From a virus (Duplodnaviria > Heunggongvirae > Uroviricota > Caudoviricetes): a stretch of 12,400 bases of DNA. Each line of letters starts with the position of its first letter. The first letter of the stretch is position 1. The notes beneath the pieces were generated by a model. It saw only the letters and a list, made by a program, of their open reading frames with translations, was not told where the DNA came from and did no database searches. Made by a program: the position numbers and the translations under genes. Location: IMG/VR virus record IMGVR_UViG_2778261689_000004. One strand, written 5' to 3'. Shown here piece by piece: positions 1,064-10,935 of the stretch.

Positions 1064-1408
1064 GATGGTGTTAACTCCAGTCATCGCTGGCACTACCACT
1101 GCTGGTTCAGAGTTAAAAAAACTATGATTTTTTTCATGATGTTACCGTAGTATGTGAGTATCCATCGAATAGACACCAAGCAAAAAAGCTCCCGAAGGAG
1201 CCTTCATTTTCACTTTTTTAAATCCAACGACAGACGGCTGGCATTTAAGTATTGTGAAATATTATCAAATGTAATCATCATTGATTTACAAAAGATACAT
1301 TTTGCCCCGAAAGGATTCATGTCAGAAACATCAAAAGATGATGTTCTATACTGGGAACCATGACAACACGGGCATCTAAAGTGAATATGGTTTGTAATAT
1401 TGTCTACC

Positions 1409-1621
1409 TCAAAGCGCCACTACATGAACAGCGGCAGGACCTTTAGGTCCGTTCTCAATACCAAATTCAACTTCCTGATTCTCAGTTAATGTTTTGAAAT
1501 CGTTGCTCTGAATTGCTGAGAAATGGACAAACACATCTTTGCTGCCATCTTTCGGCGTGATGAAACCAAAACCTTTTTCAGGGTTAAACCATTTCACTAA
1601 ACCAGTCATTTTGTTAGACAT
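1409..1621 (-). CDS. cspI: Cold-shock protein CspI (CspA family), 70 aa
   Basis: [23 protein letters not shown]... cold-shock domain with both RNP motifs; ATG at 1619-1621, TGA at 1409-1411. Confidence 0.95.
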
Positions 1622-1772
1622 AATTATTACCTTTTGAAGAAATTAGCCCTTGGGCAGAATGGTCCGAAAAAAAATATCAGAGAGAAAAACCAACAAGGAA
1701 ATCTCAAGAGGTACAAATAATAAAATTATAACAATGACTGCTTCAGATAAATTTGTAACAAACCAGAACACC

Positions 1773-4011: not shown

Positions 4012-4292
4012 GAGATTGTGGTGCTTTTTGTGGGAGTCATCCACTTACGCACTTTGTTTTGCCATGCCAGCAGTTAGCTTCTGCTGTAAAACTATTCATG
4101 CAGCAAACCTGCACTTCACCACAATGGTTAGCATACTTTTCCTGATTAAGATTTTGCCAAATATGCTAGCCATTGTTTCATGTATTGGACCTCCTTACTT
4201 TTTATTAAAGAGATCCAATATTCACTACTCTGTCCGTATCTCTACTCAGGCATCAGCCTTCTTCGTTATCGTATACAGACGAGCGATGAATT

Positions 4293-4508
4293 TTAATCAG
4301 TAATGATGACATTTGCTGCTGCAGGACCTTTAGCACCACTCTCTATAGAGAAGGTAACCTTTTGACCTTCAAATAAGGTTCGATAATTATCATTCTGAAT
4401 CGCAGAAAAATGCACAAACACATCTTTACTACCATCAACAGGAGAAATAAAGCCGAAACCTTTATCAGCGTTAAACCATTTTACTAAACCAGTCATTTTA
4501 TTTGACAT
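4293..4508 (-). CDS. cspB: Cold-shock protein CspB (CspA family), 71 aa
   Basis: [38 protein letters not shown]...; AGGA ribosome-binding site; 5' UTR contains GCCGAAAGGC (plus-strand reverse complement at 4528-4537), which I recall as the cspA-family upstream box. Confidence 0.95.
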
Positions 4509-4675
4509 TCTACATTCCTTAACTTGAGCCTTTCGGCATAAATGGTTTGCATAACAGAAACGACTTCGTACTTAATTGGAGAGACTCAAAGAAGGAATAA
4601 GTGAATAACACCTGAAATGAGAACTGCTTTAGTAAACTACTTCGTATATCGTCTGTTCTTCAAACCGACGCAATC

Positions 4676-6984: not shown

Positions 6985-7052
6985 AAGTGCGGGTGCGTTG
7001 AGGATGCCTGCCACATCAGAGGTGGCGAGGGATTTCTCCCCCGCCGGGTCTC

Positions 7053-7208
7053 TTACTCCTCAGGTTCGTAAGCTGTGAAGACAGCGACCTCCGTCTGGCC
7101 GGTTCGGATTCGTACCTCGCAGAGGTCTTTCCTCGTTACCAGTGCCGTCACTATGACGGTTAAACAGATGACGATCAGGGCGATTAACATCGCCTTTTGC
7201 TGCTTCAT
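7053..7208 (-). CDS. hokD: Hok-family type I toxin HokD (RelF), 51 aa (below the ORF-track cutoff)
   Basis: Hand translation gives MKQQKAMLIALIVICLTVIVTALVTRKDLCEVRIRTGQTEVAVFTAYEPEE; AGGAG ribosome-binding site upstream; immediately downstream of relE. Confidence 0.9.
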   Translation of the reverse strand: MKQQKAMLIALIVICLTVIVTALVTRKDLCEVRIRTGQTEVAVFTAYEPEE

Positions 7209-7279
7209 AGCCTGCTTCTCCTGTCAACGCAAAGCAGAAGTGTCACCTTCGGTGCGAAACAGAGATGTCATGCTTTGGT

Positions 7280-7567
7280 TCAGAGAATGCGTTTGACCGC
7301 CTCGCTATATACTTCCGAGCGTTCTCTTTTCCCAACAGAAATCACGAAAACGACAACTTTCTCGTCTATAACCTGGTATACAAGGCGATAGCCTGAAGAC
7401 CGGAGCTTAATCTTGTAACAATCAGGCATACCACGGAGCTTGTTTGCTTCAATCCGGGGTGACTCAAGTACTTCAACCAGCTTCTTTTTCAACTGTTCAC
7501 GTACCGTCGAGCCCAGCTTTCGCCATTCCTTTAGTGCCCGCTCGTCAAAATCCAGAAAATACGCCAT
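7280..7567 (-). CDS. relE: RelE mRNA-interferase toxin, 95 aa
   Basis: MAYFLDFDERALKEWRKLGSTVREQLKKKL... matches RelE as I recall it; start overlaps the relB stop. Confidence 0.95.
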   Translation of the reverse strand: MAYFLDFDERALKEWRKLGSTVREQLKKKLVEVLESPRIEANKLRGMPDCYKIKLRSSGYRLVYQVIDEKVVVFVISVGKRERSEVYSEAVKRIL

Positions 7568-7806
7568 CAGAGTTCATCCAGCGTCACACGTACTGGCTTA
7601 GGATTACGAAGCCGTTCTTTCACTATCTCCACAAGTTCAGCATCTTCATCACTCAGGAGTGTCTGTTTGAACGGCAAGCGTTCATTGTCAGCGATATACT
7701 CGAGCATGAGACGAAGCGCTTCAGAAGGAGTTACACCCATTTTTTCAAGCGCGGCGTAAGAACGCGCTTTAAGTTCATCGTCAATACGCAGGTTAATGCT
7801 ACCCAT
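7567..7806 (-). CDS. relB: RelB antitoxin, 79 aa
   Basis: MGSINLRIDDELKARSYAALEKMGVTPSEALRLMLEYIAD... matches RelB as I recall it; ATG at 7804-7806. Confidence 0.95.
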   Translation of the reverse strand: MGSINLRIDDELKARSYAALEKMGVTPSEALRLMLEYIADNERLPFKQTLLSDEDAELVEIVKERLRNPKPVRVTLDEL

Positions 7807-7817
7807 GTCTTACACCT

Positions 7818-7870
7818 CTTGTAATTACAAATGTCATTACAAGTATCGCACTACAACATGCTTAGGGCAA
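7818..7870 (-). promoter_or_regulatory. relBE promoter/operator region (relO-like hexad repeats plus candidate -35 TTGCCC / -10 GATACT)
   Basis: Perfect 12-bp palindrome TTGTAATTACAA (7819-7830), and flanking inverted repeats CTTGTAAT (7818-7825) / ATTACAAG (7836-7843), lie 12-37 bp upstream of the relB ATG; candidate -10 at 7842-7847 and -35 at 7865-7870 with a 17-bp spacer. Confidence 0.55.
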
Positions 7871-8136
7871 GTCACGAAGGAAGTCAGAAAGTAGTCGTAA
7901 GAACGGTGATCACTGTCCGCTTTGTGCCAGGAGCAGCCATTGCTAAGTCCATCCTGTATTGTGCAGGTCAGCTCGTTTTTAAAGAGTCCGGCCATCATCT
8001 TACTGGTACAGACACCATATACTTTGTGACGGTCAGGCTACATATGCACAACTCAACTTATTCATCTATTTTTTGCTTTAGCATGTCAGTGTTGCTTTCT
8101 CGTCGGCGGGTGAGCGGTGACCTGACCTGTCGATAA
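7831..8136 (+). CDS. ydfV: Doubtful ORF overlapping the relBE operator (position of K-12 ydfV), 101 aa
   Basis: ATG-initiated ORF with no ribosome-binding site, starting inside the relO palindromes; low-complexity translation. Listed only because an ORF is annotated here in K-12 as I recall. Confidence 0.25.
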   Translation: MSLQVSHYNMLRASHEGSQKVVVRTVITVRFVPGAAIAKSILYCAGQLVFKESGHHLTGTDTIYFVTVRLHMHNSTYSSIFCFSMSVLLSRRRVSGDLTCR

Positions 8137-8288
8137 AGGAACGTAACACGTTTTATGCAACACCCGCATGCGGCAGAAAATTATTGCCGAACGTTTACCC
8201 CTGTCAACAAGCTTTACTTTCTGAGGCGCGCCAGCCCGCGAGGAAAACAATCTGAACATCAAACAATTAATGACACAAGAAATACGAT

Positions 8289-8315
8289 TAAAGATTTTTT
8301 TGTGCATGCCGATAG
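8289..8315 (+). promoter_or_regulatory. Sigma28 (FliA) class 3 flagellar promoter upstream of flxA
   Basis: TAAAGATT-N11-GCCGATAG against the consensus TAAAGTTT-N11-GCCGATAA; followed by AAAGGAG and the flxA ATG at 8339. Confidence 0.7.
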
Positions 8316-8338
8316 TGCTTTTTTAAAAGGAGAAATCT

Positions 8339-8671
8339 ATGTCTGTCACAATTCAGGGAAATACCTCAACCGTTATTTCAAACAACTCCGCCCCGGAAGG
8401 AACATCAGAAATAGCCAAAATCACAAGACAAATTCAGGTGCTGACTGAAAAGCTTGGGAAAATCTCATCGGAAGAGGGGATGACGACACAGCAGAAAAAA
8501 GAAATGGCTGCATTGGTACAGAAGCAAATTGAAAGCCTCTGGGCTCAACTGGAGCAGTTGTTAAGGCAGCAGGCAGAGAAAAAGAATGAAGACGCGACAG
8601 TTCAGCCTGATAAAAAAGAAGAGAAAAAAGACGATACAAATACCGCTGGCACCATTGATATTTACGTCTAA
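8339..8671 (+). CDS. flxA: FlxA (FliA-regulated protein), 110 aa
   Basis: MSVTIQGNTSTVISNNSAPEGTSEIAKITRQIQVLTEKLGK... matches FlxA as I recall it; preceded by a strong ribosome-binding site and the sigma28 promoter. Confidence 0.9.
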   Translation: MSVTIQGNTSTVISNNSAPEGTSEIAKITRQIQVLTEKLGKISSEEGMTTQQKKEMAALVQKQIESLWAQLEQLLRQQAEKKNEDATVQPDKKEEKKDDTNTAGTIDIYV

Positions 8672-8685
8672 GTGACAGCCGTATT

Positions 8686-8708
8686 GTGGCCCTCATCGGG
8701 CCACTTTT
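8686..8708 (+). terminator. Intrinsic terminator downstream of flxA
   Basis: Stem GTGGCCC / GGGCCAC with loop TCATC, followed by TTTTCG, 15 nt after the flxA stop. Confidence 0.55.
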
Positions 8709-8878
8709 CGCCATCAGCCTTTTCTTTAAAGACATATTATCTTTGTATCATTTCTGATAGTTAACATTACAAGATATAAGTAATGGACGCACTCCCAATT
8801 AGTCTATTTAAATCGCCACGAGTTTAACTGACAACCCATGATCAATTATGAATTGCAACTATTTCTGTAGTCACTTTT

Positions 8879-10719
8879 GTGGGGACAGTCCACAAAACTG
8901 CCAACTTCCGCTTCTTGCTCTTAGCGGACATTAGCATAGGCTATTTACCATAACGCCTCATTACGCGCACCGCCCAGACTGACTCAGCGCGTTTCTGGCA
9001 TATCCCCGGTAAAACAAGTAACAAACCACCCGAAAATGAACACCAGAAACGCGACTTAAGAATCTACCCTATGAATGGATATGCACTCAACCGAATCGAT
9101 CTTGGTTTCAATCTTTTTTATCGGGATCAGGCTTCTTTTTAGGTAACTTCGGGGGCTTAACTTGCTGATGACTTTGCGTTCGGCGCGTAAGCCAGGGATG
9201 GTCAGCTTTAGGTTTAACATAGTATTTTGAGCGTAAATCAATACGGGCATTATCCACTCGTTCATGGACACTCTTTTCATCATCCAGTGGTATAGGCTCC
9301 GGGCCATCAACATACTTTTCCCAGCCCAGCGCTTTCCCGTCATACAGAACGTTAATTTCACCGTCAAAGTTCTCGCATACAGTAACAACCGAATGCCTAA
9401 GTCGATATCCCCGGCCCTCACTGCGTACCTGAAACGCACTGCTTTTGTACTGGAAAGTGAGATTTTTAGACAGAACGCGCTTCGCCTGTAGGCTGAAGAT
9501 ATAACCCAGTTCCTCTTCAGAATGGTGCACATCAAGATGAGCATTATCAGTAGTACGAGGCGACGTAGCGAACCGGTTGTTATAGGCTTCAATAAAGGTC
9601 GGCAACCATGCATTTGCTGTTTCAATATCACTGATATTCTGAAGCCGCATTTCTTTGACCAGCCTGTCCTGTAGTGTCTGATTGGCGCGCTCTACCCGCC
9701 CTTTTGCCTGCGGGCTGTTGGCATGGATTGGCTCGATGCCCAGTGTCTTTATCGCACGAGTGAACTGGGTCAGCTCACCTTCCCGCTCTGGGTTATTTAC
9801 CCTGAATATACTGTGTCTATCAGAGTAGAGAGCGAGCGGTACGCCATGATCATTAAGGTAACCCCGGAGGGTTTCCATGTAAGCCCGGGTTGTTTCAGCA
9901 GGCACAAAACGCAACGCCATCAACGCACTGGTGGCATCATCAATGAAAACGATCAGTGTACATCTGGGGCCTCGATTTTCAAACCAGTCATGAGGTGAGC
10001 CATCAATCTGGATCAGTTCACCGTAAGATGGTCGTCGCATGCGGCGTTGATATATACGGGCAATTTTACGACGGCGTTCACGCCATAACCCCTCTTCTAT
10101 CATCCACTTTCTGAGAGTTTCAACGGATAAAGATAAACCGTGTATCTCGCGCAATTTTTCGCACGCAAACGTAGGTCCAAAATCAGCGTAACGGCCTTTG
10201 AGGAGTGAAATTACTGTTGCTCTGAATTCAGTAGAAAAGGAATTATTAGGACGCTTTCCACGTCGGTGGGAAACCAGACCAGAAGGCCCTTCATTTCTAT
10301 ACCGTTGCACCAGACGTTTAACCTGCCGAATAGAAATGCCAATGCGTGCCGCAGCTTGTTCCTGAATAATCTGAAGTCGGTGGAGTTCCTTATGACTCAT
10401 CGTAACAGTCTCTTTGATCATGAAAAATCCCCCAGAGAATTGTCTGGGGACATTTTAGAATGGTTCAAAGGGGACATTACAGCTTGGTGTTAACAATAGC
10501 CTGCTTCTCCGTGCCTTTCGGCACGTAAGAGGCTAACCTACATGTGTCTAGCATGAAATTGGCCTCAGATTAATGTTAAGCGTCTTGCAGGACGCGTAAT
10601 GTTAACTGGGGCTTTTCTCTATCTGCCGTTGGTGTCCATGCCCGAGGCAGATAGCCTCAAGCACCCGCAGTCATTCTACTTAACTAAGATTTCCCCGCAA
10701 ACCGTTTTTGTCCAGCACA
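8879..10719 (-). mobile_element. IS-like element carrying one DDE transposase gene; ends tentative
   Basis: The 437-aa transposase (9108-10421) is flanked by unusually structured non-coding DNA. Tentative termini are TGTGGGGACA at 8879 and the reverse complement TGTG-CT-GGACA ending at 10719; this short imperfect match is all that supports them. No clear target-site duplication found. Confidence 0.3.
9108..10421 (-). CDS. DDE-type transposase (rve integrase core with N-terminal helix-turn-helix; IS481 / ISNCY-IS1202-like), 437 aa
   Basis: N-terminal HTH-like region (IGISIRQVKRLVQRY), candidate catalytic residues in LIQIDGSPHDWFE, LYSDRHSIF and KGRVERANQTL (D, D, E with downstream basic residues), basic C-terminal tail. 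Not one of the K-12 insertion sequences I can recall. Confidence 0.85.
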   Translation of the reverse strand: MIKETVTMSHKELHRLQIIQEQAAARIGISIRQVKRLVQRYRNEGPSGLVSHRRGKRPNNSFSTEFRATVISLLKGRYADFGPTFACEKLREIHGLSLSVETLRKWMIEEGLWRERRRKIARIYQRRMRRPSYGELIQIDGSPHDWFENRGPRCTLIVFIDDATSALMALRFVPAETTRAYMETLRGYLNDHGVPLALYSDRHSIFRVNNPEREGELTQFTRAIKTLGIEPIHANSPQAKGRVERANQTLQDRLVKEMRLQNISDIETANAWLPTFIEAYNNRFATSPRTTDNAHLDVHHSEEELGYIFSLQAKRVLSKNLTFQYKSSAFQVRSEGRGYRLRHSVVTVCENFDGEINVLYDGKALGWEKYVDGPEPIPLDDEKSVHERVDNARIDLRSKYYVKPKADHPWLTRRTQSHQQVKPPKLPKKKPDPDKKD

Positions 10720-10755
10720 GTAAATATCCAACTAAACCAATGGAGTTCGCTGTAT

Positions 10756-10935
10756 TTACCGCCAGTATTCAATGCACATGACCGCCATGAACACCCCTAA
10801 AAAAAGGGCATTTATATATCCAAATATTAATATCAAAACATCAACTTTTTCCATATACCTTGCTGTGAAGATGATGGGCATACATGATGCGAACAACCAG
10901 AACGCAACAAACAAAAACTGCAATGCGTTTTTCAT
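10756..10935 (-). CDS. Small membrane protein with two predicted transmembrane helices, 59 aa
   Basis: ATG at 10933-10935 preceded by a perfect AGGAGG 6 nt upstream; MKNALQFLFVAFWLFASCMPIIFTARYMEKVDVLILIFGYINALFLGVFMAVMCIEYWR has two hydrophobic segments. The track ORF extends to a GTG at 10974 with no ribosome-binding site. Could correspond to the K-12 ydfW/intK-region ORF, unverified. Confidence 0.5.
   Translation of the reverse strand: MKNALQFLFVAFWLFASCMPIIFTARYMEKVDVLILIFGYINALFLGVFMAVMCIEYWR

What the first reader, a model, noticed from the sequence alone, without database searches (positions are those of the whole stretch)
10422..10450. Hairpin sequestering the transposase ribosome-binding site
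Directly upstream of the transposase ATG the mRNA would read CCCCAGA-CAAUUC-UCUGGGG-GAUUUUUC-AUG: a 7-bp stem (plus 10430-10436 / 10443-10449) whose 3' arm overlaps the only Shine-Dalgarno-like element (GGGGGA, 6 nt before the AUG). Fold-back occlusion of the ribosome-binding site is a known way insertion sequences limit transposase translation, especially from read-through transcripts.
Basis: partly seen in the sequence, partly recalled or inferred. Interest (0 to 1): 0.45.

Follow-up and report, generated by a model that had tools for sequence, protein, structure and literature searches.

The report
Ribosome-site-hiding hairpin in ISEsa1 leader
The hairpin is real and is the tip of a larger, evolutionarily conserved fold in the leader of an ISEsa1 (IS1202-family) transposase mRNA that buries the ribosome-binding site, a known kind of self-restraint in jumping genes that had not been described for this family.

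Summary
On the minus strand, CCCCAGA (10449-10443) pairs with UCUGGGG (10436-10430) and covers the GGGGGA Shine-Dalgarno (SD) 6 nt before the ATG at 10421.

The stem extends to 13 bp. It caps a roughly 31-bp interrupted fold (10481-10401) that pairs the two repeats of the left end (AATGTCCCC, presumed transposase-binding sites) with the SD, the AUG and codons 2-7.

The gene belongs to an ISEsa1 copy (IS1202 family) lying directly behind a hok/sok leader in a Qin-like E. coli prophage.

Predicted SD accessibility is about 0.08, with about 17 kcal/mol needed to open the site, in transcripts entering from outside or from the IS tip. It is about 0.65 (5-6 kcal/mol) if transcription starts after the 5' arm.

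The same architecture recurs in relatives with 44-98% identical transposases. It shows compensatory changes, lineage-specific stem extensions, G·U-biased substitutions and a sense-strand stability bias.

Best reading: a translational attenuator against read-through expression (confidence about 0.6). Rivals are extra transposase-binding sites in DNA, an intrinsic terminator, or a by-product. It is a new member of a known kind (IS10, IS50, IS200). Nothing has been tested experimentally.

The parts
8903..10495 (-). ISEsa1-like insertion sequence copy (IS1202 family, listed under ISNCY)
   Evidence: 98.5-99.3% identical to plasmid copies annotated 'IS1202-like element ISEsa1 family transposase'. 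The left boundary at 10495 comes from alignments with copies in other flanks. The right end is degenerate and no clean inverted repeat was found.
9108..10421 (-). Transposase ORF, 437 aa (alternative start Met8 at 10400)
   Evidence: NCBIfam NF033594 'ISNCY family transposase', E = 7e-137, 456 bits against a cut-off of 250. Pfam HTH plus rve_3 domains. Identical to the ISEsa1 transposase except for an in-frame 9-aa deletion in the N-terminal HTH region.
10470..10495 (-). Left terminal inverted repeat: TGTTAACACCAAGC followed by repeat 1 (TGTAATGTCCCC, 10481-10470)
   Evidence: Homologous to TGTTAGCCCAAAGCnGTAATGTCCCC at the left ends of relatives. The same motif occurs inverted at their right ends. 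Motif scan.
10446..10457 (-). Repeat 2 (TAAAATGTCCCC), 24 nt after repeat 1. It contains a -10-like TAAAAT and supplies most of the 5' arm.
   Evidence: An additional internal transposase-binding site near each end is described for the family in PMC10132070.
10443..10456 (-). 5' arm of the apical hairpin (AAAAUGUCCCCAGA)
   Evidence: MFE structures.
10437..10442 (-). Hairpin loop (CAAUUC)
10424..10436 (-). 3' arm (UCUGGGGGAUUUU), containing the SD GGGGGA at 10433-10428. The U run at 10427-10423 also serves as a terminator-like tail.
   Evidence: Terminator-like pattern found.
10401..10421 (-). 3' strands of the outer stems. AUG (10421-10419) pairs with CAU (10462-10460). UCAAAG (10417-10412) pairs with CUUUGA (10470-10465). 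GAC and GUUACG (10410-10401) pair with UGUAAUGUC (10481-10473).
   Evidence: MFE of the full leader. Outer helices are 67-82% paired across 42 distinct relatives.
10496..10670 (-). 5' part of a hok/mok/sok type I toxin locus, co-oriented with tnp and ending at the 'AT' of the hok start codon. It is the likely source of read-through transcripts.
   Evidence: Rfam RF01794 (sok), 104 bits, window 10495-10666. 84% identical to the leader of an intact plasmid hok locus up to the AT of its ATG. Hits to plasmid hok loci.
10418..10477 (-). 19-codon upstream ORF. It starts at the ATG inside repeat 1, and a second ATG lies inside repeat 2. It runs through the hairpin, and its stop TGA overlaps the tnp ATG (ATGA).
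   Evidence: Its frame and stop are not conserved in relatives, so its relevance is doubtful.

Best explanation
The hairpin is the apex of a conserved fold-back in the leader of the ISEsa1 transposase mRNA.

The 5' strand of the fold is the left inverted repeat itself, with its two direct copies of AATGTCCCC. These are presumed transposase-binding sites. The 3' strand is an imperfect mirror image of them. It carries the Shine-Dalgarno sequence, the AUG and the first seven codons up to a second in-frame AUG.

Any RNA that starts at or outside the IS tip contains both strands. In this copy that most likely means transcripts from the hok promoter immediately upstream. Such RNA folds so that the 30S subunit cannot reach the ribosome-binding site, and little transposase is made. 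An RNA that began after the 5' arm would have an open site.

Shown: the sequence, the predicted stability and accessibility, and the conservation, covariation and strand bias of the fold across the subgroup.

Inferred: that the fold represses translation in vivo, that the repeats bind transposase, and which transcripts exist.
For: 1. Local hairpin energy is -13.7 kcal/mol, z = -2.45. The 81-nt fold is -26.4 kcal/mol, z = -3.99.

2. SD P(unpaired) is 0.083 and dG_open for -14..+3 is 16.8-17.3 kcal/mol for RNAs starting at 10600, 10495 or 10470. The values are 0.65 and 5.0-6.3 kcal/mol for starts at 10445 or 10442.

3. A co-oriented hok/sok leader ends exactly at the IS tip.

4. The architecture repeat1-N14-repeat2-loop-[inverted copy with SD]-start recurs in relatives with 44-98% transposase identity from many phyla.

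5. In 35 of 47 relatives the repeat2-to-start segment folds better than 95% of dinucleotide shuffles, with mean z of -2.65. In most relatives the repeat-2 core pairs with the SD zone.

6. Arms co-vary: CCCC/GGGG, CCUC/GAGG (L033, L080, L064) and CCGC/GCGG (L045, L083).

7. The stem continues beyond the motif with lineage-specific sequences: AGA/UCU here, G/C in L020, CAUAG/CUAUG in L095, CUGGUGG/CCACCGG in L069 and UUCGA/UCGAA in L070. Loops vary from 6 to about 75 nt.

8. A covariance model of the fold hits the tnp 5' end in 46 sources and a right end only once.

9. On that alignment 65.8% of cells pair, against 48-55% for slid partners. The covariation score is 0.164 against 0.05-0.09. There are 50 double-change cells against 15-27, and 0-1 of 500 shuffles reach the observed values on three of five measures. 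The trend is the same on a plain MAFFT alignment.

10. Mismatches between the arms are biased towards G·U-compatible transitions, 32 against 14.

11. Sense folds are on average 4.0 kcal/mol more stable than antisense folds, in 29 cases against 11.

12. SD-sequestering left-end hairpins are established for other IS elements. In IS200 the stem-loop blocks 30S binding (PMC4513863).
Against: - There is no experiment, and no transcription start is known.
- No sigma-70-like promoter was found in 10300-10800. It is therefore unclear whether any transcript escapes the fold. The element might simply be expressed very poorly.
- RNAalifold on an unguided MAFFT alignment predicted no consensus structure. 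The covariation statistics rest on a structure-fitted alignment of related sequences.
- The C-rich binding motif and a G-rich SD are complementary almost by default.
- Co-variation of the motif core is also expected if the 3' arm is a further protein-binding site.
- For the window copy itself the antisense strand folds slightly better, -29.2 against -26.4 kcal/mol.
- Chloroflexi relatives carry similar palindromes at the right end, where there is no start codon.
- This copy's transposase has a 9-aa deletion in its DNA-binding region, so regulation may be moot here.
Confidence: 0.6

Rival explanations
1. DNA-level element. The 3' arm and the mirrored sequence before Met8 would be additional, inverted transposase-binding sites. 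They could form an operator for autorepression of tnp or be part of the left-end transpososome architecture. RNA pairing would then be incidental.
For: The 3' arm resembles an inverted copy of the repeat: GGGGGATTTTT against GGGGACATTTT here, and 11 of 13 positions in L020. It tracks repeat variants (CCGC, CCTC) in relatives. Chloroflexi relatives have perfect repeat-2 palindromes at the right end as well. The family is reported to have extra internal transposase-binding sites.
Against: - The spacing between the half-sites varies from 6 to about 75 nt, whereas the distance to the start codon is nearly fixed.
- Stems extend beyond the motif with unrelated, mutually complementary sequences.
- Substitutions are biased to G·U on the sense strand, 32 against 14. 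Sense folds are more stable than antisense folds.
- In gammaproteobacterial relatives the right end lacks the inverted copy.
- The covariance model hits almost only left ends.
Confidence: 0.15
2. Intrinsic transcription terminator. The G+C-rich stem followed by AUUUUUC would stop transcripts coming from the hok promoter just before the tnp ATG. The element would then insulate at the level of transcription rather than translation. The two functions could coexist.
For: It is the only terminator-like site found in 10300-10800: 8 pairs, 5 of them G-C, a 6-nt loop and the tail ATTTTTCATG. IS200 has a left-end terminator that blocks impinging transcription.
Against: - The U run is interrupted or absent in relatives: GAUAUUUC in L012, L018, L021 and L098, and no U run in L013-L038 or the Chloroflexi elements. 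The stem is nevertheless conserved.
- The U's are predicted to pair with the upstream A run.
- A terminator placed 2 nt before the ATG would also kill the element's own mRNA unless that mRNA starts inside the hairpin.
Confidence: 0.15
3. No selected function. A C-rich binding motif next to a G-rich SD would pair by chance, and the rest would be over-interpretation of related sequences.
For: A bare 7-bp stem is not rare. RNAalifold on an unguided alignment found nothing. Relatedness inflates the shuffle statistics. The uORF coupling idea is not conserved.
Against: - Stem extensions are lineage-specific.
- The outer helices involve repeat 1 and codons 5-7 and are 67-82% paired.
- Slid controls score clearly lower.
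- Right-end repeats in close relatives lack the fold.
- There is a strand bias.
Confidence: 0.1

Closest known systems
IS200 tnpA 5'UTR stem-loop, together with the IS200 left-end terminator
   Same: An inverted repeat in the left end forms a stem-loop in the transposase mRNA that sequesters a G-rich SD (AAGGGGGU in IS200, GGGGGA here) and blocks 30S binding. IS200 also carries a hairpin that protects against impinging transcription (PMC4513863).
   Different: IS200 belongs to an unrelated family (HUH transposase) and has two separate hairpins plus an antisense RNA, art200. Here one nested fold is built from the presumed transposase-binding repeats of a DDE-type IS. No antisense RNA is known, and nothing has been tested.
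Fold-back inhibition in IS10 and IS50 (Tn10, Tn5) read-through transcripts
   Same: Transcripts that start outside the element include a sequence complementary to the ribosome-binding site, whereas the element's own shorter mRNA does not. This protects against activation from outside. This is established knowledge recalled from the literature (Kleckner and Reznikoff laboratories; reviews by Mahillon and Chandler).
   Different: For IS10 and IS50 the native promoter and start site lie downstream of the 5' arm and are mapped. Here no promoter could be identified, so selectivity for read-through RNA is only a hypothesis.
IS1202-family end architecture (ISAjo2, ISEsa1; Harmer and Hall 2023)
   Same: TGT terminus, a terminal repeat plus an additional internal copy of its inner part near the end, and a DDE transposase with an N-terminal HTH.
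   Different: Neither that paper nor the Siguier et al. preprint mentions a hairpin, translation, an SD or a promoter role for the internal repeat. The mirrored third and fourth copies and the RNA fold are not part of the published description.
ISPpu9 5'-UTR structure
   Same: Expression of an IS transposase is limited by secondary structure of the mRNA 5'UTR (PMC8450116; title and abstract seen).
   Different: ISPpu9 is a different family, its regulation involves two sRNAs, and the details were not read.

Membership tests
RBS-sequestering leader hairpins of IS transposase mRNAs (IS10, IS50 and IS200 type) | An inverted repeat near the transposase-proximal end whose 3' arm contains the SD and/or the start codon | tested here: met
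   The 3' arm at 10436-10424 contains GGGGGA. The outer stem pairs the AUG.
RBS-sequestering leader hairpins of IS transposase mRNAs (IS10, IS50 and IS200 type) | The structure is stable enough to make the SD inaccessible | tested here: met
   SD P(unpaired) is 0.08 and dG_open is about 17 kcal/mol. z = -3.99.
RBS-sequestering leader hairpins of IS transposase mRNAs (IS10, IS50 and IS200 type) | The native transcript starts downstream of the 5' arm, so that only outside transcripts fold | tested here: inconclusive
   No sigma-70 consensus promoter was found. A -10-like TAAAAT lies just before the 5' arm, but there is no -35. No TSS data are available.
RBS-sequestering leader hairpins of IS transposase mRNAs (IS10, IS50 and IS200 type) | Stem-disrupting mutations raise translation and compensatory mutations restore repression | not testable with these tools
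   Needs reporter fusions or toeprinting.
RBS-sequestering leader hairpins of IS transposase mRNAs (IS10, IS50 and IS200 type) | Conservation with covariation in related elements | tested here: met
   Caveat: the alignment was fitted to the structure and the sequences are related.
IS1202 family, ISEsa1 subgroup | Transposase matches the family model | tested here: met
   NF033594, E = 7e-137. 98% identical to the ISEsa1 transposase apart from a 9-aa deletion.
IS1202 family, ISEsa1 subgroup | 5'-TGT termini and terminal inverted repeats with an internal second copy | tested here: inconclusive
   The left end meets this (TGTTAAC..., repeats at 10481-10470 and 10457-10446). The right end is degenerate and no clean inverted repeat was found.
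IS1202 family, ISEsa1 subgroup | Target-site duplication | tested here: not met
   There is none in the window, and the hok coding sequence is absent on the other side. A 75%-identical relative in Salmonella (L092) has a clean 15-bp duplication.
Intrinsic (Rho-independent) terminator | G+C-rich stem-loop followed directly by a U run | tested here: met
   Pattern scan.
Intrinsic (Rho-independent) terminator | The U run is conserved together with the stem in relatives | tested here: not met
   The U run is interrupted or absent in most relatives.
Any curated RNA family (Rfam 15) | Match above the gathering score at the hairpin | tested here: not met
   The only nearby hit is RF01794 (sok) at 10495-10666. 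Nothing was found at 10395-10481.

The most novel reading that the evidence does not exclude
The leader fold could be a dual-use switch tied to the element's insertion preference. Elements of the ISEsa1 clade appear to insert precisely at the start codon of type I toxin genes (hok, ldr), in the toxin's orientation. The structured leader then sits directly behind a toxin promoter and leader.

Transposase synthesis could then be driven by the toxin locus and gated like it. In this copy the mok-like ORF ends in TAATG at the ATG of a 19-codon uORF. That uORF reads through the hairpin and ends in ATGA on the tnp start. This would allow a translational relay under Sok antisense control. Transposase binding to the same repeats in DNA could add feedback.
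Probability: 0.1. Interest if true: 0.7.

Novelty: new member of a known kind. Interest (0 to 1): 0.4.

Why it matters
The finding gives a concrete, testable explanation for how a widespread enterobacterial IS could stay quiet even when it sits behind an active promoter. A match to the query segment (IS plus flanks, 8900-10800) occurs in 4707 of 5426 complete E. coli genomes, full length in 787, and on many IncF and IncH plasmids.

It also shows that the presumed transposase-binding repeats of the IS1202-family left end double as the anti-SD strand of the mRNA. This should be taken into account when these ends are mutated or when the elements are used as tools.

The principle itself is well known, so the general significance is modest. 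The comparative set assembled here (46 leaders and a covariance model) would let the fold be annotated across the family.

Tried and rejected
1. RNAalifold on unguided MAFFT alignments. The 9-sequence set recovered only the outer 9 bp. The 20-sequence set gave no consensus at all. Register shifts and variable loops defeat the aligner, so I used named-structure counting and a covariance model.

2. The first duplex test split the arms badly for short-loop elements. It was replaced by whole-segment folding.

3. The idea that 9066-8903 is the missing rest of the hok gene was rejected. The intact hok locus L090 matches only 10678-10496 and the separate hokD at 7029-7222. The 'unannotated' plasmid hits to 8902-9066 are IS remnants cut by IS26.

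4. A search for a canonical right inverted repeat in the window copy gave only low-scoring candidates.

5. Translational coupling through the uORF that ends in ATGA has a frame and stop that are not conserved in relatives. It is kept only as a window-specific note.

6. A promoter scan of 10300-10800 found no sigma-70 consensus site.

7. Rfam has no family at the hairpin.

8. The leader is not a sharp conservation peak relative to the rest of the IS, except against the closest variant.

9. Literature searches for ISEsa1 or IS1202 with hairpin, translation or hok found nothing relevant.
Full report
**What is in the window**

The finding lies in the 5' region of a 437-aa ORF on the minus strand, 10421..9108. 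The protein matches NCBIfam NF033594 'ISNCY family transposase' at E = 7e-137 and 456 bits, against a cut-off of 250. It has N-terminal HTH domains and an rve_3 core.

The DNA is 98.5-99.3% identical to plasmid copies annotated 'IS1202-like element ISEsa1 family transposase'. The protein equals the ISEsa1 transposase except for a clean in-frame 9-aa deletion in the first HTH region.

The surroundings are a Qin-like E. coli prophage: cspI ... relBE-ydfV-flxA, then the IS. A match to the query segment (IS plus flanks, 8900-10800) occurs in 4707 of 5426 complete E. coli genomes, at full length in 787.

**Boundaries**

Alignment with copies in other flanks places the transposase-proximal end at 10495, reading TGTTAACACCAAGC... 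on the minus strand.

Immediately outside lies the 5' part of a hok/mok/sok locus, co-oriented with tnp. It gives an Rfam RF01794 hit at 10495-10666 with 104 bits. It is 84% identical to the leader of an intact plasmid hok locus up to the 'AT' of its start codon.

The far end is near 8903. It is degenerate, and I could not find a clean right inverted repeat.

**The observation**

The minus strand reads TAAAATGTCCCCAGA-CAATTC-TCTGGGGGATTTTTC-ATG.

A bare 7-bp stem is not remarkable. The window has 21 perfect 7-bp stems with 3-8 nt loops, against 4.7 expected by chance. Only 7 have at least 5 G-C pairs, against 0.3 expected.

The stem extends to 13 bp with one bulged G, at -13.7 kcal/mol and z = -2.45. 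It caps a longer fold in which:
- CAU (10462-10460) pairs with the AUG.
- CUUUGA (10470-10465) pairs with UCAAAG in codons 2-4.
- UGUAAUGUC (10481-10473) pairs with GAC and GUUACG in codons 5-7.

The 81-nt segment folds at -26.4 kcal/mol against -15.4 +/- 2.8 for shuffles, z = -3.99.

**What the arms are**

The 5' strand of the fold is the left inverted repeat. It contains two direct copies of AATGTCCCC, 24 nt apart, at 10478-10470 and 10454-10446.

I fetched 80 loci encoding relatives with 44-98% identical transposases. They show the same left end: TGTTAGCCCAAAGCnGT-AATGTCCCC-N14-AAAATGTCCCC. Relatives with clean ends show the same two copies, inverted, at the right end.

This fits the published description of the IS1202 family, with 5'-TGT ends and an additional internal transposase-binding site near each end (PMC10132070). 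That these repeats bind transposase is taken from that paper by analogy. It was not tested here.

The 3' strand is an imperfect mirror of the two repeats. The mirror of repeat 2 carries the SD, and the mirror of repeat 1 lies in codons 5-7, just before a second conserved in-frame ATG (Met8, 10400). PGAP starts the protein at Met1 (446 aa in intact copies). ISfinder lists 439 aa, which corresponds to Met8. Both candidate initiation sites lie inside the fold.

**Predicted consequence**

| RNA start | SD P(unpaired) | Energy to open -14..+3 |
|---|---|---|
| 10600 (hok leader), 10495 (IS tip) or 10470 | 0.083 | 16.8-17.3 kcal/mol |
| 10445 or 10442 (after the 5' arm) | about 0.65 | 5.0-6.3 kcal/mol |

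A difference of this size is expected to reduce initiation by orders of magnitude. That expectation rests on established knowledge of the relation between RBS structure and expression, and it was not measured here.

The hok promoter region lies directly upstream in the same orientation. Read-through RNA is therefore the most likely tnp transcript in this copy.

**Is the fold selected?**

- *Local stability.* In 35 of 47 non-redundant relatives the segment from repeat 2 to the start codon folds better than 95% of dinucleotide shuffles, with mean z of -2.65. In most relatives the repeat-2 core pairs with the SD zone.
- *Co-variation of the core.* The pairs are CCCC/GGGG in most elements, CCUC/GAGG in L033, L080 and L064, and CCGC/GCGG in L045 and L083.
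- *Lineage-specific stem extensions.* This is the more telling point. The stem runs on beyond the repeat with different, mutually complementary sequences: AGA/UCU here, G/C in L020, UG/CG in L092, CAUAG/CUAUG in L095, UU/AA in L025, L026 and L030, CUGGUGG/CCACCGG in L069, UUCGA/UCGAA in L070 and UUUUGUG/CACGAAA in L089. The loop varies from 6 to about 75 nt, while the 3' arm stays next to the start codon.
- *Covariance model.* A model built from a 20-sequence alignment with the window's structure found the fold at the tnp 5' end in 46 of the 74 sources searched (the window and 73 related loci), and only once at a right end.
- *Pair counts on that alignment* (42 distinct sequences). 65.8% of cells pair, against 48-55% when partners are slid. 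The covariation score is 0.164 against 0.05-0.09. There are 50 double-change cells against 15-27. The shuffles reach the observed value 0, 1 and 0 times in 500 for percentage paired, double-change cells and covariation score, but 102 and 8 times in 500 for the two measures that count pairs and pair types. The apical helix is 73% paired and the outer helices 67-82%.
- *Unfitted alignment.* The same trend holds on the plain MAFFT alignment: 67.7% against 46-53%, and 0.178 against 0.11-0.13.

**Caveats**

The sequences are related, and the alignment A7 was fitted to the model. RNAalifold on unguided alignments found only the outer 9 bp or nothing.

**RNA or DNA?**

The 3' arm looks like a third, inverted copy of the repeat. 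It could therefore be a protein-binding site, and co-variation of the core is expected on either view.

Four things favour RNA:
- the lineage-specific stem extensions and the variable spacing;
- the bias of arm mismatches towards G·U-compatible transitions, 32 against 14 of the A·C type;
- the greater stability of sense over antisense folds, by 4.0 kcal/mol on average, 29 against 11, Wilcoxon p = 3.6e-4 without correction for relatedness;
- the absence of the mirror copy at the right ends of gammaproteobacterial relatives.

Two things count against:
- the window copy itself folds slightly better on the antisense strand, -29.2 against -26.4 kcal/mol;
- Chloroflexi relatives (L066, L068, L070, L075) have perfect repeat-2 palindromes at the right end, inside the 3' end of tnp, where no start codon is involved.

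I cannot exclude a dual role.

**Terminator rival**

The stem followed by AUUUUUC is the only terminator-like site in 10300-10800. It could stop hok-derived transcripts 2 nt before the ATG.

The U run is not conserved with the stem. It is GAUAUUUC in the nearest clade and absent further out. Termination is therefore at most a local addition to the conserved function.

**Promoter**

No sigma-70 consensus promoter was found. A -10-like TAAAAT forms part of repeat 2 and ends 6 nt before the position (10445) from which an RNA would lack the 5' arm, but there is no -35.

The classic logic that only outside transcripts are blocked is therefore plausible but unproven. Every tnp mRNA may carry the fold.

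**Comparison with known systems**

SD sequestration by left-end inverted repeats is established for IS200, where the stem-loop inhibits 30S binding and a separate terminator blocks impinging transcription (PMC4513863). From my own knowledge it also holds for read-through transcripts of IS10 and IS50. ISPpu9 is another example of 5'UTR structure control.

The two papers that define the IS1202 family do not mention a hairpin, translation, an SD or such a promoter role. Rfam has no family at the hairpin.

I file this as a new member of a known kind. The mechanism is ordinary. Its occurrence in this family, and its construction from the binding repeats, have not been described.

**Verdict**

It is refined in three ways: the fold is larger and nested, the 5' strand has a probable second job in DNA, and the selectivity for read-through transcripts is unproven.

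Confidence in translational attenuation as the main function is about 0.6. Interest is 0.4.

Noticed in passing
window 10496-10510 / 10495; loci L002, L003, L007-L011, L020, L098-L100 (hok type); L092:327-1800 and L021 (ldr type): Elements of the ISEsa1 clade abut the start codon of type I toxin genes, always co-oriented with the toxin. The junction is ...GGAGAAGnnGGCyAT|TGTTAAC in at least five diverged hok leaders, and CCATG|TGTTAAC in L007. In the ldr cases L092 reads AAGGCGGCTATATG|TGTTAAC and L021 reads AAGGCGGTTATATG|TGTTAAG. The Salmonella copy L092 has a clean 15-bp target duplication (CAAGGCGGCTATATG) with the Ldr toxin ORF intact after the right end. Harmer and Hall 2023 list ISEsa1 as having no TSD and no identified target. 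This points to sequence- or structure-specific targeting of toxin translation starts.
   Followed up: partly
window 8903-9107: The right end of this IS and of ISEsa1 copies in general is aberrant. About 205 bp follow the tnp stop. There are only degenerate repeat copies in the expected inverted orientation (8999-9007, 9023-9031, 9058-9069). A fragment like a left end (TGGTAAATAGCCTATGCTAATGTCCGC, minus strand about 8955-8924) lies in direct orientation. The hok coding sequence that should follow the IS is absent.
   Followed up: partly
window 7280-10670; L002 and L004 (Enterobacter IncF plasmids): The block relE-relB-ydfV-flxA-ISEsa1-hok' of the Qin-like prophage is also present, 99% identical, on Enterobacter IncFIB/IncFII plasmids. 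This suggests the segment has moved between a prophage and plasmids together with the IS.
   Followed up: no
window 10358 region (codons 21/22 of the ORF): The transposase of this copy lacks 9 aa (SINRHITQE, flanked by a QE...QE repeat) in the N-terminal HTH region relative to the ISEsa1 transposase. PGAP annotates the locus as a pseudogene plus 'ydfW' (9108-9257). This copy may be immobile.
   Followed up: partly
window 10418-10554, minus strand: A mok-like 25-codon ORF (10554-10477; annotated as DUF5431 in some plasmid copies) ends in TAA overlapping the ATG of a 19-codon uORF (TAATG). The uORF (10477-10418) reads through the hairpin and ends in TGA overlapping the tnp ATG (ATGA). This is a possible translational relay, but the frames are not conserved in relatives. 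All three frames entering the IS are closed by TAA codons before the hairpin.
   Followed up: yes
window 10398-10421; relatives L013, L014, L016, L038: The start codon is ambiguous. Met1 and Met8 are both conserved. In many relatives the Lys-Glu codons (AAGGAG) 9 nt before Met8 form a canonical SD, so the 'N-terminal heptapeptide' may be leader RNA rather than protein. PGAP and ISfinder differ by exactly 7 residues.
   Followed up: partly
L066, L068, L070, L075 (3' end of tnp; Chloroflexi relatives): Perfect palindromes made of right-end repeat 2 and an inverted copy lie inside the last codons of tnp. An example is AGAGATGTCCCC-ttgcaa-GGGGACATCTCT. Their function is unknown. They are the main observation that the RBS-occlusion model does not explain.
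   Followed up: partly
L092 right end (…GCGTTGACA|) and left ends of relatives: The right tip of clean relatives reads outward as a perfect -35 hexamer (TTGACA). The left end has TAATGT 16 nt in from the tip. A circle-junction promoter of the copy-out-paste-in type is conceivable, as suggested for ISKpn21 in the Siguier et al. preprint.
   Followed up: no
window 1382-1767 and 4277-4669, minus strand: Two Rfam cspA thermoregulator matches (113 and 159 bits) belong to the prophage cold-shock genes cspI and cspB.
   Followed up: no
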